DNA of 11,858 nucleotides from Azolla caroliniana (Eukaryota > Plantae > Polypodiophyta): NCBI GenBank assembly GCA_043228905.1, contig JBHGNT010001121.1, forward strand, positions 1-11,858, written 5' to 3'. The number at the start of each line of letters is the position of its first letter. The stretch's first letter is position 1. A program made the position numbers and the translations under genes. Under the pieces are notes generated by a model that did not search any database, was not told the DNA's origin, and saw only the letters and a list, made by a program, of their open reading frames with translations. Shown in pieces: positions 5,194 through 11,858 of the stretch.

Positions 5194-5740
5194 TGTTGGG
5201 AAATTGGTCTCTTCGGATGGGATCCAGTGATGAATAAAGAAAGAGGACCCGAAGAGAACCAGAAGAGATCCGAAAACTGAAGGAGTCTTGGGAGAACCGG
5301 AAGAGAAGACAGATTTGTAAATATGTCTTGAATAAGCCCATTGAGGCTATATTTGTAAATAGCCCTAAGTTCGTATAACTATAAATATGACTTAGGGCAA
5401 TCACTTTGTGTGTGCGATTGTGTTGTTGTCATATTGTTGTAACTGTTGTATAGAGAGAGAGAGAGAGAGAGATACATAGCGATACTCTGTTGTAACCGCC
5501 ATTGGCGAAGAAACAGAGCTCGAGGTCGTTGCCTCTGAGTCTCTGATTGTACCCCTTTCTCTTCATCGTGATAGTTCGGAGTCTGTGGACTCCCGTGGTT
5601 TTTCCCTATTCGGGTTTTCCACGTAAACATCTTGTGTTATTTTCTTGTGTACTCTCCACTTCCCATTTCTATGTTTGATTCTTAAACAAGTGATTTACTA
5701 CTCGGTTGTGGCCGAACGGTATTCTGCGCATTTCTTTTCA
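5194..5740 (+). repeat. Copia 3' LTR (547 bp)
   Basis: TGTTGGGAAA...TTTCTTTTCA; direct repeat of 795-1340. Confidence 0.96.
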
Positions 5741-6313: not shown

Positions 6314-7699
6314 TTAACACCTTTGGTAAGAACTTGCTCTTTATGAGCAAGTATATTCATGAATGTACTAACTACTTGTTTAAGAGCTGCATAAGGATTT
6401 GTGTGTACTACATCCCCTCCACCAATATTAGGGTTTTGTTTTCTAGCTCCACGAGAACGAAGTCATTGATTTAATTGAGGTCGTACCACCCTTCCTGAAG
6501 AATCGAATTGTAATTGGTTGGACAATCTCTGATTTCGCACTTGTTTCTGCCAAGGATTTTTCTTAAACCCCTCCTTCAATCTCAAATTATCTTTTGGTAA
6601 TGTCGTACCATAAGTATTTTTGTTTCCCTTTGTATAACAACACCCTTCCCTTTTATCTTATGGTCCACTTGATGCCACTCTCCATCTTCAACATTTGGGC
6701 CATCATTATTACATACTCCATTCTCCTCCCCAACACCTCTAACATGACCATGAACTTTAGGATCTCGCTCTAACCCATGAGATGTTCCCTCATCCATGAC
6801 CATATCAACCATTGAGACAATATCCTTCTCAACATCTTCCTTATTTTTCCCTTTGACATTATTTTCTAGGGATAGTTCACCATGATATTGGCATTCAGCC
6901 ATAAAATGCCCCAATTTACCACATTTAAAACAATGTCCTGCAAAAGTTTCCCATTGAAGCTTAAAACGAAATCGACCAAATCGAGATGTATCGATACTCG
7001 ACCATCCTGGAAGTTTACAGCTTGTATCCCATAACGTGCAAAATCTACATTTGTTCAACGAATTAACATGAGGTGCAACCAAAACTTTACCAATTTGGGA
7101 CATCAATCCCGATAGTAAATCCCAAAAGAATAAGTTACTACAATCAACGGTCACCCAAATTGGACATTGTTGTTTTAATAAATCTTTATAATCCACCACC
7201 GGAACCCATTCCATCACATGCACTAATCTTCTATAAAAAAATATTGGTACCTTTGCCATCAAAGTCGTACGGTGTTCTAACGATCGAAAAACTACATCAT
7301 AGAAACCTCTTAGACCCACATACACATCCTCAACACAATTAGGCATTATGAATGAATTCAACCAATGCTTAATCCATGATACCAAAGGAAGTTTGCTAGT
7401 GAAATACAAAATAACACCATGATCATAGAACCTGGCAAAAGTTGCTAACATAGAGTTGGTCTCCATCACCACCTCGACAACATCTTCCTCCACACAATCT
7501 TTAGCATCTTTCTCATTTTTTTCCATAAAATTGGAAAGCAAAGCCTTAACAAAATCACAACGATTGTCAATATCATAATCATCTCCAATAACATCTTTCC
7601 CACCAATAATATCAGCATATGATGTTCTCTCATTTTTTGTAGAATCAATACACTTTTGCCTCTTGTAATTTTCATAACCATCATCACTACCACATCCAT
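6310..7699 (-). pseudogene. LINE ORF1 (plant L1-type, DUF4283-like region plus CCHC zinc knuckle); N-terminus removed by the gypsy insertion
   Basis: SYADII motif, GFYDVVF...VMEWVP...PIWV block and CFKCGKLGHFMAEC (6932-6891). After a frameshift near 6600-6655 a second frame runs to TGA 6312-6310 with one internal stop (6465-6463). Confidence 0.85.
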
Positions 7700-7708
7700 T
7701 GTCATGAT

Positions 7709-7775
7709 ATGGCAAGACTCGAACCCATGACCTTATACTACATGGGTCGAGCTCTTACCATTAGACTATGAATTG
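7709..7775 (-). promoter_or_regulatory. tRNA-derived Pol III type-2 promoter-like unit (A box 7768-7758, B box 7725-7715); not a functional tRNA
   Basis: Minus strand TAGTCTAATGGTAAGA...AGGTCATGGGTTCGAGTC, with tRNA-like spacing from U8 to G53-T54-T55-C56-G57-A58-C61; the acceptor stem does not pair. Confidence 0.68.
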
Positions 7776-7828
7776 TAATTTGTAAGATATTATTTTCATT
7801 TATATTTTATCATAGAAAATTGATGTAT

Positions 7829-7878
7829 ATTCCAGATCTCTCTGGAACATTCTAGAAGCTTCGGGATTATTCCTAAAA
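7829..7878. promoter_or_regulatory. Heat-shock element array (alternating nGAAn/nTTCn), perfect 4-unit core at 7844-7863
   Basis: TTCcaGATctCTCtgGAAcaTTCtaGAAgcTTCggGATtaTTCctAAA: 10 units in 5-bp phase, 6 perfect and 4 with one mismatch, directly upstream of TATA. Confidence 0.8.
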
Positions 7879-7882
7879 ACAC

Positions 7883-7889
7883 TATAAAA
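7883..7889 (+). promoter_or_regulatory. Gypsy LTR TATA box
   Basis: cTATAAAAgg, 33 nt upstream of the predicted transcript start at about 7916. Confidence 0.75.
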
Positions 7890-8125
7890 GGAGGCACAAG
7901 GCATTGTTTTGAACCAAATTGGTTCAACACCAATCTTAAGCCTCTTAGCCAATTTGTACTTATCTTTCATATAATATAAGAGTTGTTGTCATCATCCTAA
8001 CTCTCCCTCTCCTCTTCTCACTTCCTCTCTCTCGGGAATCTTACGCAGTCACGTCCTCTTAGTACTAATAGTACTGCTCTTCTTAGTACTAATTCCATCT
8101 CTGCTTTAGTACTATTCCTGACAAT

Positions 8126-8137
8126 TTGAACCAATTT
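8126..8137 (+). other. Self-priming primer-binding site
   Basis: TTGAACCAATTT is the exact reverse complement of AAATTGGTTCAA (7916-7927); no TGG-type tRNA PBS follows the LTR. Confidence 0.82.
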
Positions 8138-8196: not shown

Positions 8197-9354
8197 ATGG
8201 CTATTGTTAGCGCCCAAGAATATCAATCCGTTTTCTCTGAGTTACAGTGCCTAAAAGAAAAGTTTGTTGCCCTGGAACAAGAAAACCAACGGCTGATAGG
8301 GGATCTGCAACAAATCGCTCTAGAAAAGCAACAAACGCAGCAACAACATGGGGAGTTAGCGTTACGGGTGCAACAACTTGAAGCGGCATTGCAACAATAA
8401 GGATCAAGTCCCCAAGGATTTCATAAAGAGCCGAAGATTGGACTTCCTGTGAAATTTGATGGAACGCGATCGCAATTCAGGGGATTCCTTAATCAGGTAC
8501 GATTAGTCTTCCAAATGCATCCTTCCCGATACCCCACTGATGCATCCCGAGTCGGCTTAATAGGCACGTTGCTTAGCGGCTCAACCTTAGCATGGTTCGC
8601 TCCACTTCTAGAAAAACAATCGCCCTTGCTTAATAACTTTGAAGATTTTATTAGTGAGTTCAAAGCCTGCTTTGGAGACACCGACAGCATCAGGACGGCA
8701 ATCAACAAGATCCGGGGATTGCGTCAAGGCGATCGTCCAGCCTCTGCCTACGCGGCGGATTTCCGCCTACTCGCTTCCGACATACCCTGGGATGATCAAG
8801 CACTAATGGAGTAGTTTCGCTATGGCCTGCAAAATGATGTCAAAGATCTACTTCTAACCTTCCCCGAAGAACCAAAGTCTCTTACGGAGGCAATCAGTCG
8901 ACCAGTCCGATGTGACAACTGCCTTTTCGAATGGCGTTCGGAACGTCAATTACAGATACCACGCGCTAGGCCGGAGCCCACTTACGCTGCAGTCGCGGCT
9001 AGACCGTTTGCACGAGACATACCTCAAGCAAATACTTCGACACCGATGGAGATCGATACCATGCGTCGACGCGGCCCGTTATCGGAAGAAGAAAAGCAAC
9101 GACGACGTGCAAATCGATTATGTCTTTATTGCGGTGGACCAGGGCATATCGCAATCAATTGTCCCCATAGGCCAAGAAGACAGGTAAATCAAATTGTAGC
9201 TTGTACTAAACCCGAGTCAATTCTTCCCTTAGGAGTGTCTGATGGTATTAATAGTACTAATAGAGTGTTTGATAGTATTCATAGTACTAATAGCCCAAGT
9301 ATCTCAAATAAATTTGAAATCCTTAGTCAATTAGATGAAGAGTTAAACGATTGA
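8197..9354 (+). pseudogene. Gypsy gag (N-terminal coiled coil, capsid, CCHC nucleocapsid)
   Basis: One continuous frame joining track ORFs 8197, 8449 and 9046, with stops at 8398 (TAA) and 8812 (TAG). Motifs KFDGTRSQFRGF, LRQGDRPASAYAADF, TPMEID, CLYCGGPGHIAINC. Confidence 0.92.
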
Positions 9355-9396
9355 GTCCAGCCAAAATAGGAGCCGTTTGGTTGGACAGCAGCCCTA
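9342..9396 (+). other. Programmed -1 ribosomal frameshift signal between gag and pol
   Basis: G_TTA_AAC in gag phase, 6-nt spacer, 11-bp stem (9355-9365 / 9376-9386), possible second stem; pol is in the -1 frame and has no upstream ATG. Confidence 0.78.
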
Positions 9397-11858
9397 GATC
9401 TGTACAGCCCATTAGTGGTTCCATTCCTTCCAAGCAAGTTAGCAATGTGTTCCTAGCCCAAGTCATTGTTAGTACTAAAAGTACTCCCCCAGTACCCGTC
9501 CTAGCACTTTTAGATTCCGGAGCTAATTCCTGTTTCATGGATTGAAATTTTGCCCAAGCTTCTCAGATATCCTTAAGAAAACTTCCTTGTCCCGCATCTG
9601 TAGTAGTCATTGATGGTCGTCCCATTGCTTCCGGGAATATTGTAGAAGAATCAGAACCCATTCAAGTTGTCCTAGGTAGTTTTGTGTGTGTAATATCATT
9701 TAATATAATTAGTAGTCCAGAGCATCCCATTGTCCTAGGATTACCTTGGTTTGAATTACATAATCCAGCCATAGATTGGAGAACAAGAGAAGTCCGACAT
9801 TGACCACCCCAAGAATTAACTCACCAAGTTTCGACCATTTCACTCCATCAACTACGCGAAGAAGGACCCAAGGAGGCCATGTTCCTATTTGCAATATCAG
9901 TACATCCTTCCAGCACTATTAAGAAGGACTCCTCAGTACAACTTCCAGCAAAATATCATCCTTATGCCGATGTATTTGACAAGGTAAAAGCCGGTACCCT
10001 TCCTCATCACCGTCCCTATGACTGTCCCATCGATTTACAACCAGGAACCAAGCCACCATGGGGACCAATTTACAACTTGTCACCCACCGAGTTAGAAGTC
10101 CTTCGAGCCTACATAGAGGAGAACTTGGCAAGCGGGTTCATTCGCCATTCGAAATCTCCGGCCGGTGCACCCATCTTCTTTGTGAAGAAGAAAGATGGCT
10201 CACTTCGTCTTGTCGTTGATTACGGCGGATTGAATAAAGTCACCATCCGGAATAGGTATGCACTTCCTCTTATATCAAGTCTTTTAGAGCGAGTTAATGG
10301 TGCCAAGTTTTTTACTAAAATCGACCTACGAGGAGCGTATAACCTCGTGCGGATCCGACCGGGAGATGAGTGGAAGACCGCTTTTCGCACGCGGTATGGT
10401 CCTTTAGAGTATACTGTTATGCCGTTTGGCCTAACCAATGCACCTGCAGTCTTCCAACACATGGCAAATGATATATTCAGAGATCTCTTGGATATCTGTT
10501 TGATCATTTATCTGGATGATCTATTGATTTATTCGAAGACCCAGGAAGAGCACGATTCTCATGTACTATTAGTACTAAAGCAACTCCGCGAGAATGGTCT
10601 TTATGCCAAGCTAGAAAAATGTAGCTTTGACTGCAAGCAAGTGGAATTTCTAGGCTACGTCATCTCCTTAGAGAGCATCGCCATGGATCCAGCTAAAATC
10701 CAAACTGTACTAGAGTGGCAAATTCCACGGTCGGTACGAGATGTACAATGTTTTCTAGGTTTTGCTAACTTCTACCGTAAGTTTATACAGGATTACTCGA
10801 AGATTATTTTACCTCTCACACAACTTACGAAGAAGGGCCAAGCATTTCTTTGGTCCATAGAAGCAAATATGGCTTTTCAGCATCTTAAGAAAGCCTTTAC
10901 ATCAGCACCGATTCTAGCTCATGTGGATACAAGCAAACCATTCATCATGGAGGCCAACGCATCAGATTTCGCCCTCGGTAGCATCCTTTCTCAACAAGGC
11001 GATAAAGAAGAGTTGCATCCGGTGGCTTTCCATTCACGCAAATTCGATGTCGCAGAAATCAACTACGAAATACATGACAAGGAGTTATTAGCCATCGTGG
11101 ATTCATTTGTACAATGGCGGCATTTCTTAGAGGGCTCTCCACATCAGGTCATTGTCTTTAGCGATCATAAAAATCTTGCTTATTTTCAGAACGCTCGCGT
11201 ACTAAATCGACGGCAAGCTCGGTGGGCGCAATTCCTCACGCGTTTCGACTTCAAAATCACATATCGATCAGGGAAGCAGCAAGGAAAAGCAGATGCACTA
11301 TCACGGCGTTCATATCTTGCACCTCGTCCTGGTGACACAACATTTGATAATCAAAAGCAAGTAATCTTGGGACCAACACGATTGCACACAACGCAGATTT
11401 TTCACACCTCGATGGATTCACGGATTACCGATGACATACGTGCAACCTTGAAGACGGATAGTTTTGCTCAAGACATCCTGGCGCACATTGATACTTCTCG
11501 GGCATCCTGTTCTCGGTCTCAACAACCAGGTATTGACTACCGACAATTCGAATATCATGATGGTTTGTTATTCTTCAAAAAGCGCGTATATGTCCCCGAT
11601 TGCTCTTGTCGCCTTCAAATCGTCCAACATTGTCACGACACCCATACGGCGGGACATTTCGGTAGTACTAAGACGTTGGAGCTAGTGCAACGATCTTTTT
11701 GGTGGCCCCACATGCGCCGTTTTGTCGACGACTAAGTTCGGACCTGTGATGCTTGCTGCCGAGCAAAGATGCCACGACACCATCCATATGGCTTGTTGGA
11801 ACCCTTACCGATTCCAAGTAAGCCGTGGCAGTCTATTTGTCTTGATTTTATCACAGAT
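9345..11858 (+). pseudogene. Gypsy pol (protease, RT, RNase H, start of integrase)
   Basis: Single frame: ALLDSGA, KIDLRGAY, MPFGLTNAPAVFQ, IYLDDLLI, EANASDFALG (catalytic D appears mutated to N), SDHKNL, ADALSR, HDTHTAGH...CDAC, GLLEPLPIP...LDFITD. Stops at 9543, 9801, 11733. Confidence 0.96.

What the first reader, a model, noticed from the sequence alone, without database searches (positions are those of the whole stretch)
7709..7775. Outward-facing tRNA-like A/B-box promoter at the LTR tip, refolded into a ~20-bp hairpin
Seen: on the minus strand, A box TAGTCTAATGG and B box GGTTCGAGTC lie at tRNA-gene spacing and include the AGGTC variable-loop motif. The cloverleaf is lost. Instead 7709-7729 (ATGGCAAGACTCGAACCCATG) pairs with 7741-7761 (CATGGGTCGAGCTCTTACCAT) with two bulges, one mismatch and an 11-nt loop. 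Known: TFIIIC-bound B boxes can act as chromatin barriers. Inference: an insulator for the adjacent promoter, or a source of antisense Pol III RNA. From a 3' LTR that RNA would cross the PPT; here it would read into LINE ORF1 up to the first T4 at about 7554-7551.
Basis: partly seen in the sequence, partly recalled or inferred. Interest (0 to 1): 0.72.

Follow-up and report, generated by a model that had tools for sequence, protein, structure and literature searches.

The report
Backwards tRNA promoter in retrotransposon LTRs
Several families of an autonomous retrotransposon, probably from a non-seed plant, keep a backwards tRNA-gene promoter signal at the outer tip of their end repeats while the DNA around it has diverged beyond alignment, which likely gives the element a portable barrier against gene silencing, although binding and function are untested.

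Summary
Confirmed. 7700-8123 is the 5' LTR of a high-copy, self-priming, Tcn1-like chromovirus inserted in a LINE ORF1. A reverse A box, AGGTC and B box sit at its tip with tRNA spacing. The same unit is at the LTR tip of four other families (L011, L012, L013, L015; pol 55-73% identical to the window family's intact relative): 5 of 56 tips, and all 4 testable members of one well-supported clade. Across the five, AGGTC is invariant, B box 0.80 and A box 0.57 identical, the rest about 0.3; each has an A/T-rich 45 nt upstream, as plant tRNA genes do. The cloverleaf, the 20-bp hairpin (window family only) and a terminator are not conserved. So selection acts on a DNA promoter platform, placed outside the Pol II enhancer and TATA box. 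Most likely role (inferred, 0.45): a TFIIIC/Pol III barrier shielding the LTR promoter. Rivals: antisense RNA, landing pad, relic. No binding or RNA data. Closest known: Helenus and Cassandra TRIMs, which are non-autonomous. The scan noted tRNA-type boxes in fungal chromovirus LTRs before (unchecked notes).

The parts
7700..8123 (+). 5' LTR (424 nt, TGTCA...TGACA) of a Ty3/gypsy chromovirus
   Evidence: Depth step and loose ends at 7700 and 8123; ends and PBS
7700..7707 (+). LTR tip; in a 3' LTR the pol frame would end here (V-S-stop)
   Evidence: P0002 ends ...GGIVS; L011 and L012 show pol running through the PPT into the tip; inferred for this family
7709..7761 (.). 20-bp hairpin, 11-nt loop; window family only
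7716..7725 (-). B box (tRNA positions 52-61)
   Evidence: no family variant at 2% or more listed at 7721-7728 (7716-7720 may be masked by the edge of the stretch)
7729..7733 (-). AGGTC (tRNA positions 44-48), identical in 5 of 5 families
7758..7768 (-). A box (tRNA positions 8-19)
   Evidence: family variants mostly at positions 9, 11 and 12, plus G10
7776..7820 (-). A/T-rich 45 nt upstream of the unit (0.89 A+T); predicted TFIIIB loading zone
   Evidence: plant tDNA feature in PMC11700998 section 3.2
7845..7862 (+). Heat-shock-element-like GAA/TTC array (likely Pol II enhancer; pattern recalled)
7883..7890 (+). TATA box of the LTR's Pol II promoter
7916..7927 (+). Predicted 5' end of the genomic RNA = self-primer, inside a short palindrome (7909-7927)
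   Evidence: 12-nt complement of the PBS; fold
8126..8137 (+). Self-priming PBS, 2 nt after the LTR
8197..11858 (+). gag and pol of the element (interrupted by stops and frameshifts; runs off the window)
   Evidence: Pfam Ty3_capsid, Retrotrans_gag, zf-CCHC, RVT_1, RT_RNaseH, Integrase_H2C2; 92% to P0002, which carries a chromodomain
6582..7699 (-). LINE ORF1 interrupted by the insertion; first T4 for a minus-strand Pol III RNA at 7554-7551
   Evidence: 94% to P0181 from its residue 14, starting at the junction

Best explanation
The LTR tip carries a reverse tRNA-type promoter module (A/T-rich zone, A box, AGGTC, B box at tRNA spacing) that several families of this chromovirus lineage have kept while its surroundings diverged, and it likely works as a DNA platform for TFIIIC and the Pol III machinery that would shield the LTR's own Pol II enhancer and TATA box from silencing spreading in from the flank. 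Shown: position, orientation, spacing, box-limited conservation, loss of cloverleaf, order tip - module - enhancer repeats - TATA - self-primer. Inferred: selection on DNA rather than RNA; TFIIIC and TFIIIB binding; barrier activity. Facing outward would also keep Pol III from running into the Pol II promoter (inference). Origin was likely a tRNA gene or SINE head captured into U3; L015 likely got it by a U3 swap or kept it while its sisters lost it. The long hairpin is a later, family-specific addition.
For: 5 of 56 LTR tips carry the unit, all on the - strand, T8-G53 44-46 nt, G53 25-49 nt from the edge. In 1.63 Mb of fetched DNA 120 sites score 14 or more, only 5 have AGGTC, and these are the five tips. 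Pairwise identity: AGGTC 1.0, B box 0.80, A box 0.57, against 0.30-0.35 for anticodon arm, acceptor side and T-stem letters. Upstream A+T 0.78-0.89 against 0.60-0.68 for the LTR; best comparable window 0.58-0.71 in the unit-less relatives L014, L018, L021. The unit stays while the enhancer changes: HSE-like arrays in W, L011, L015, none in L012, L013. Fold and terminator are not kept. Precedent: an S. pombe tDNA barrier needs A box, upstream TATA, TFIIIC and Pol III and works in either orientation (PMC2040200, Results read); C. elegans extra-TFIIIC sites with both boxes overlap CeRep3 repeats near H3K9me3 borders (PMC6950938, abstract and passages).
Against: No binding, chromatin or expression data. 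Only five families, four of them from single assembled copies. L012 lacks C61, L015 has a weak A box (6 of 8), and G10 is changed in 16% of depth in run X2. B boxes mostly lack G52 or C62. The invariance of AGGTC is not explained by known TFIIIC contacts and could be an RNA-level signal. A barrier does not need one fixed orientation, yet all five face outward. Close relatives L014, L018, L021 do without the unit, as does SM-Tcn1 by eye. tDNA barriers in plants are extrapolated from yeast and worm.
Confidence: 0.45

Rival explanations
1. The product matters: Pol III makes a short antisense RNA from the unit, which from a 3' LTR could pair with the U3/PPT end of the genomic RNA and limit the element's own copying or feed small-RNA silencing.
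For: A box, spacing and upstream A/T zone suit productive initiation. AGGTC plus T loop is invariant and 3 of 5 keep 4 of 5 T-stem pairs. The window hairpin is stronger on the - strand. T4 lies 13 and 20 nt after the B box in L013 and L012.
Against: First T4 lies 13, 20, 71, 162 or 1028 nt away, so there is no common RNA end. No common fold. Family variants break pairs on either strand about equally and none is compensatory.
Confidence: 0.25
2. Passive relic of a SINE or tRNA insertion into an ancestral U3, or a motif kept for an unrelated plus-strand reason (an RNA or DNA signal just after the pol stop).
For: Kojima notes that many Repbase LTRs hold tRNA-like pieces (PMC10886601). An unchecked scan note (e1-9852194) judged a backwards tRNA piece in a fungal LTR a passenger. 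Some boxes are imperfect.
Against: Conservation is confined to box positions and spacing while neighbours are at chance level; the A/T zone sits where plant tRNA genes have it; distance from the pol stop varies by 24 nt while box spacing varies by 2.
Confidence: 0.17
3. The unit is a landing pad or decoy: Pol III factors on it steer integrases of the Ty3/Ty1/Skipper-2 kind into or beside these LTRs.
For: Unchecked scan notes report this for gut-fungus chromovirus LTRs (e1-10420520, e1-10420559). Two contigs of run X2 join 7837 to the LTR start with 5-7 letters between, about 74 nt from T8 (table 5c). Chromodomain-bearing Skipper-2 elements sit downstream of tRNA genes (PMC5006619, passages).
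Against: The two contigs may be one event. No break hot spot near 7790 or 7842 among the loose-end rows shown (24 shown and 754 hidden; 19 shown and 127 hidden). The window, L011 and L013 LTRs are uninterrupted.
Confidence: 0.13

Closest known systems
Helenus (TRIMp3; Kojima 2024, PMC10886601; parts 1-4 of 6 and passages read)
   Same: tRNA-derived stretch in the LTR, conserved around boxes A and B, not a functional tRNA.
   Different: Helenus is a non-autonomous TRIM of 311-1263 bp thought to be transcribed from the Pol III promoter; the paper argues autonomous partners must use Pol II and are unlikely to share such LTR sequence. Here the element is autonomous, keeps its TATA promoter, self-primes, and the unit points out of the element. 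The paper notes other LTRs with tRNA-like parts but followed only TRIMs.
Cassandra and Ajax TRIMs (as described in PMC10886601 and PMC12786077, passages)
   Same: Pol III internal promoter carried in plant (Cassandra) LTRs.
   Different: 5S-type boxes, non-autonomous; Cassandra's promoter makes the element's own RNA. A reverse unit cannot.
Tcn1 clade of chromoviruses (PMC2864245, PMC6317226; passages, and supplement S3 of the former)
   Same: Chromodomain pol, TG...CA LTR of about 420-450 nt, self-priming, non-seed-plant type; Gag and R region resemble SM-Tcn1 by eye.
   Different: No Pol III boxes are mentioned in the passages read; SM-Tcn1's LTR tip shows none by eye.
tDNA barriers and extra-TFIIIC sites (S. 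pombe cen1 tDNA, PMC2040200; C. elegans CeRep3, PMC6950938)
   Same: A plus B box platform next to silent chromatin; the proposed mode of action.
   Different: Those are host loci or tRNA-pseudogene-like repeats with ChIP evidence; here the unit is built into the promoter of a mobile element and is untested.
Ty3, DGLT-A, Skipper-2 (PMC5006619, passages)
   Same: LTR elements next to a tRNA promoter; for upstream-inserting elements the gene points away from the element.
   Different: They find a host tRNA gene at integration; this lineage carries its own copy.

Membership tests
Helenus / TRIMp3 | tRNA-derived LTR sequence conserved at boxes A and B | tested here: met
Helenus / TRIMp3 | Non-autonomous, short, no coding capacity | tested here: not met
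   gag, RT, RNase H, integrase domains follow the LTR
Helenus / TRIMp3 | Pol III promoter able to transcribe the element itself | tested here: not met
   Unit faces out of the element in 5 of 5; a TATA promoter is present
Helenus / TRIMp3 | tRNA-primed PBS | tested here: not met
   PBS is complementary to the element's own R start in W, L011, L013
Tcn1 chromovirus | Ty3/gypsy pol with C-terminal chromodomain | tested here: met
   Window ends before it; the 92% identical P0002 carries PF00385
Tcn1 chromovirus | Self-priming instead of a tRNA PBS | tested here: met
   12-nt complement 8126-8137 / 7916-7927
Tcn1 chromovirus | Groups with named Tcn1 elements in an RT-RH-INT tree | not tested
   No named Tcn1 reference was in the trees; likeness to SM-Tcn1 seen by eye only
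Functional tRNA gene | Cloverleaf | tested here: not met
   ARAGORN 0 genes; no Rfam tRNA hit; acceptor stem 1-3 of 7
Type 2 Pol III promoter | A box and B box at workable spacing | tested here: met
   14-16 of 16 invariants, 44-46 nt; consensus positions recalled, in line with PMC10886601 and PMC11700998
Type 2 Pol III promoter | A/T-rich 50 nt upstream (plants) | tested here: met
   0.78-0.89 in 5 of 5
Type 2 Pol III promoter | T4+ terminator within about 50 nt downstream | tested here: inconclusive
   Present in 2 of 5; only 67-72% of plant tDNAs have one
Type 2 Pol III promoter | TFIIIC/TFIIIB/Pol III occupancy or transcript | not testable with these tools
   Only assembled contigs were available
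Host SINE head | Free-standing copies with a SINE body and tail outside LTRs | tested here: inconclusive
   No genome held; none in the window or fetched loci

The most novel reading that the evidence does not exclude
Autonomous plant chromoviruses carry a portable, swappable Pol III barrier in U3: an outward-facing tDNA mimic that lets a heterochromatin-seeking element insulate its own stress-inducible promoter, seeding tens of thousands of TFIIIC sites across the host genome and moving between lineages by U3 recombination.
Probability: 0.4. Interest if true: 0.8.

Novelty: new variant of a known kind. Interest (0 to 1): 0.6.

Why it matters
Pol III promoters in LTRs are described only for short non-autonomous elements that use them to make their own RNA. 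A reverse one kept in autonomous elements needs another job. It offers a testable answer to how chromodomain elements that are thought to insert into silent chromatin stay expressible, and a very abundant family would scatter many TFIIIC sites through a plant genome. It also gives a natural comparison: sister families with and without the unit.

Tried and rejected
No whole genome is held, so copies could not be counted or aligned; Logan contigs were used instead. No RNA holder was listed; the two 'RNA?' runs laid were probably DNA (X20) or gave 2 contigs (X21), which says nothing on expression. ARAGORN and Rfam found no tRNA in the window stretch or four relatives. A PPT-tip-box pattern found 0 matches in viral contigs. 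Of 114 fetched loci, 55 had a visible PPT-TG junction and were scored with the window; the rest were left out, the tips were hand-picked, many are related fungal elements, and the L015 start was off by one base. Hairpin as a conserved structure: rejected (relatives pair 13, 12, 10 and 7 of 20 in register, against 6-14 when slid). One clade for all five carriers: rejected (p-AU 0.0001, quick tree). Better conservation of the B-box CpG than its mirror: not claimed, because hides variants within about 30 nt of the stretch ends (7785 and 7804, strong, are missing there). A role as tRNA primer or integrase att site: rejected, since the PBS is self-complementary and the distance to the edge varies. 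The host species was not determined; organism names are coded. Literature searches listed no paper describing a reverse tRNA-type promoter in autonomous plant chromovirus LTRs; the library lacks most subscription papers and Repbase notes. The element table and FASTA of PMC6317226 (too large) and five DOC files of PMC2864245 could not be read and may show whether moss Tcn1 LTRs carry the unit.

Full report
Setting. The window is a nest of plant-type retroelements: a LINE on the minus strand, a copia element inside it, and from 7700 a Ty3/gypsy element. Its LTR runs 7700-8123. Contig depth in four public runs rises over 100-fold at 7696-7719, and loose ends pile up at 7700 and 8123. LINE ORF1 matches P0181 (94%) up to the codon at the junction. 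The pol frame is 92% identical to P0002, which has a chromodomain. A 12-nt PBS at 8126-8137 is complementary to 7916-7927, about 30 nt after the TATA box at 7883: self-priming, which PMC6317226 (passages) predicts for most Tcn1 elements and for no other plant chromovirus clade, and says Tcn1 occurs in mosses and club-mosses. So this is a Tcn1-like element of a probably non-seed plant; neither the clade name nor the host was tested directly.

A box 7768-7758, AGGTC 7733-7729 and B box 7725-7716 lie on the minus strand with T8-G53 = 44 nt and meet 16 of 16 scored tRNA invariants (positions recalled); 0 of 2000 shuffles match. The hairpin has z -6 to -7 and is stronger on the minus strand. There is no cloverleaf.

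Within the family. In one search, 1482, 1193 and 438 contigs of runs X2, X13 and X20 (three organism labels) were laid on 7690-7812. Depth is highest over the unit, so it is a standard part of the LTR. No variant at 2% or more is listed at 7721-7728; 7690-7720 may be masked by the stretch edge. Variants are common in the hairpin loop (7737, 7738) and beyond the A box (7770-7782, 8-98% at six sites). In the A box they fall at tRNA positions 9, 11 and 12, where the main changes (A9 to G, T11 to C, any base at 12) fit the consensus, and at G10 (16% in X2, 2.5% in X13), which does not. Many copies have one more G after 7756. Changes in the second hairpin arm are single transitions of 1-16%, with no partner change. 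Contigs drop rare variants and had to be 80% alike, so this is a biased view.

Across families. Loci were fetched by pol protein, blind to the LTR (114 loci). Of 56 scorable LTR tips including the window, 5 carry the unit, all reversed, all with AGGTC: window, L011, L012, L013, L015 (pol 73, 69, 68, 55% to P0002). Shuffles reached their scores in 1, 6, 0 and 8 of 2000. One plus-strand score of 14 (L061, B box 6 of 8) looks like chance. In 1,626,824 bases scanned, 120 sites scored 14 or more and only these five had AGGTC. Window, L011, L012 and L013 form a clade (SH-aLRT 99, quick trees). L015 groups with L014 and L021, which lack the unit, as does L018; one clade for all five is rejected (p-AU 0.0001). 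L015 shares its TATA-R stretch with L014 (83% over 53 nt) but its U3 repeats with the window and L011, which suggests a U3 swap; gain plus losses also fits.

What is conserved. Pairwise identity over the five: AGGTC 1.0, B box 0.80, A box 0.57; anticodon arm 0.32, T-stem letters 0.35, positions 62-75 0.30, positions 1-7 0.33. Box spacing is 44-46 nt while distance to the LTR edge is 25-49 nt. The 45 nt upstream are 0.78-0.89 A+T, against 0.60-0.68 for the LTRs; the three unit-less relatives reach 0.58-0.71, and 1 of 14 control tips (L103) reaches 0.80. PMC11700998 (section 3.2) gives an A/T-rich 50 nt as a mark of plant tRNA genes. Not conserved: the hairpin (minus-strand z -2.0, +1.1, +0.4, +0.9), the acceptor stem, the terminator (13 to 1028 nt), and the enhancer repeats (HSE-like arrays in three, none in two).

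Mechanism. The pattern fits selection on a DNA promoter platform (my estimate about 0.8). Its place is the same each time: outermost in U3, before the enhancer repeats and the TATA box, facing away from them. At a 5' LTR it stands between the host flank and the promoter. In S. pombe a tDNA barrier needs the A box, upstream TATA, TFIIIC and Pol III and works in either direction (PMC2040200); in C. elegans TFIIIC without Pol III binds repeats with both boxes near H3K9me3 borders (PMC6950938). I therefore commit to a portable barrier (0.45). That chromodomain integrases aim at silent chromatin is recalled, and PMC5006619 calls it untested for Skipper-1. Against: all five share one orientation, AGGTC invariance hints at an RNA-level signal, and sister families do without. 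Antisense RNA (0.25), relic or plus-strand signal (0.17) and landing pad (0.13) remain. A barrier that needs Pol III would also make some antisense RNA, so the first two are not exclusive. The window hairpin is two near-perfect inverted copies around the B box (19 of 21 letters) and may come from a local template switch; refolding of tRNA-derived SINE RNAs into rods is recalled as a precedent.

Comparison. Helenus has tRNA-derived LTR boxes but is non-autonomous, tRNA-primed and thought to be transcribed from them (PMC10886601); three defining features fail here. The paper remarks that other LTRs hold tRNA-like parts without describing them. Nine searches listed no account of this arrangement. 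Unchecked notes of this scan describe tRNA-type boxes in fungal chromovirus LTRs as landing pads or passengers, so the theme may be wider. Verdict: real, selected, a new variant of a known kind; function inferred; interest 0.6.

Noticed in passing
window 7909-7927; L012, L013, L014, L015, L018, L090 just before the CAACACCA-like motif: The predicted RNA start sits in a palindrome: the end of U3 is an inverted copy of the self-primer (folds -7 to -23 kcal/mol; weak in L011 and L021). It would exist only at the 3' end of the genomic RNA, where it could mask the second primer copy so that only the 5' end primes.
   Followed up: partly
SM-Tcn1, supplement S3 of PMC2864245, 392-406 and 499-513: By eye there is a 15-nt self-priming complement starting 2 nt after the 5' LTR, although the paper reported no evidence of self-priming.
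   Followed up: partly
window 7845-7862; L011, L015, L090 U3: Arrays of alternating GAA/TTC units like heat-shock elements (background 0.039 per kb); L012 and L013 have GC-rich CGCCAAATGGCG-type repeats instead. The family may be heat-inducible.
   Followed up: partly
window 7700-7707; L011 4200, L012 3342: The pol reading frame runs through the PPT and ends at a stop in LTR nt 6-8, so PPT and integrase att site are also coding.
   Followed up: partly
L015 4134-4462: LTR looks chimeric: U3 like the window clade, TATA-R like its pol sister L014.
   Followed up: partly
window 7837-7842: Two contigs of run X2 join this place to the LTR start (table 5c), a possible nested same-family insertion about 74 nt upstream of the A box, near a distance named in note e1-10420520.
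   Followed up: no
window about 795-1340 and 5197-5740: A complete but broken copia element with a tRNA-Met-type PBS and a GA microsatellite in its LTRs (92-96% alike) sits inside the LINE ORF2.
   Followed up: no
window 8054-8115, 9233-9292, 9469-9484, 10563-10578: A TAGTACTA palindrome motif recurs in U5, the gag-pol junction (30-nt tandem) and pol.
   Followed up: no
L090-L114: 25 eukaryotic Ty3/gypsy contigs lie in bacterial and archaeal genome records, likely binning contamination.
   Followed up: no
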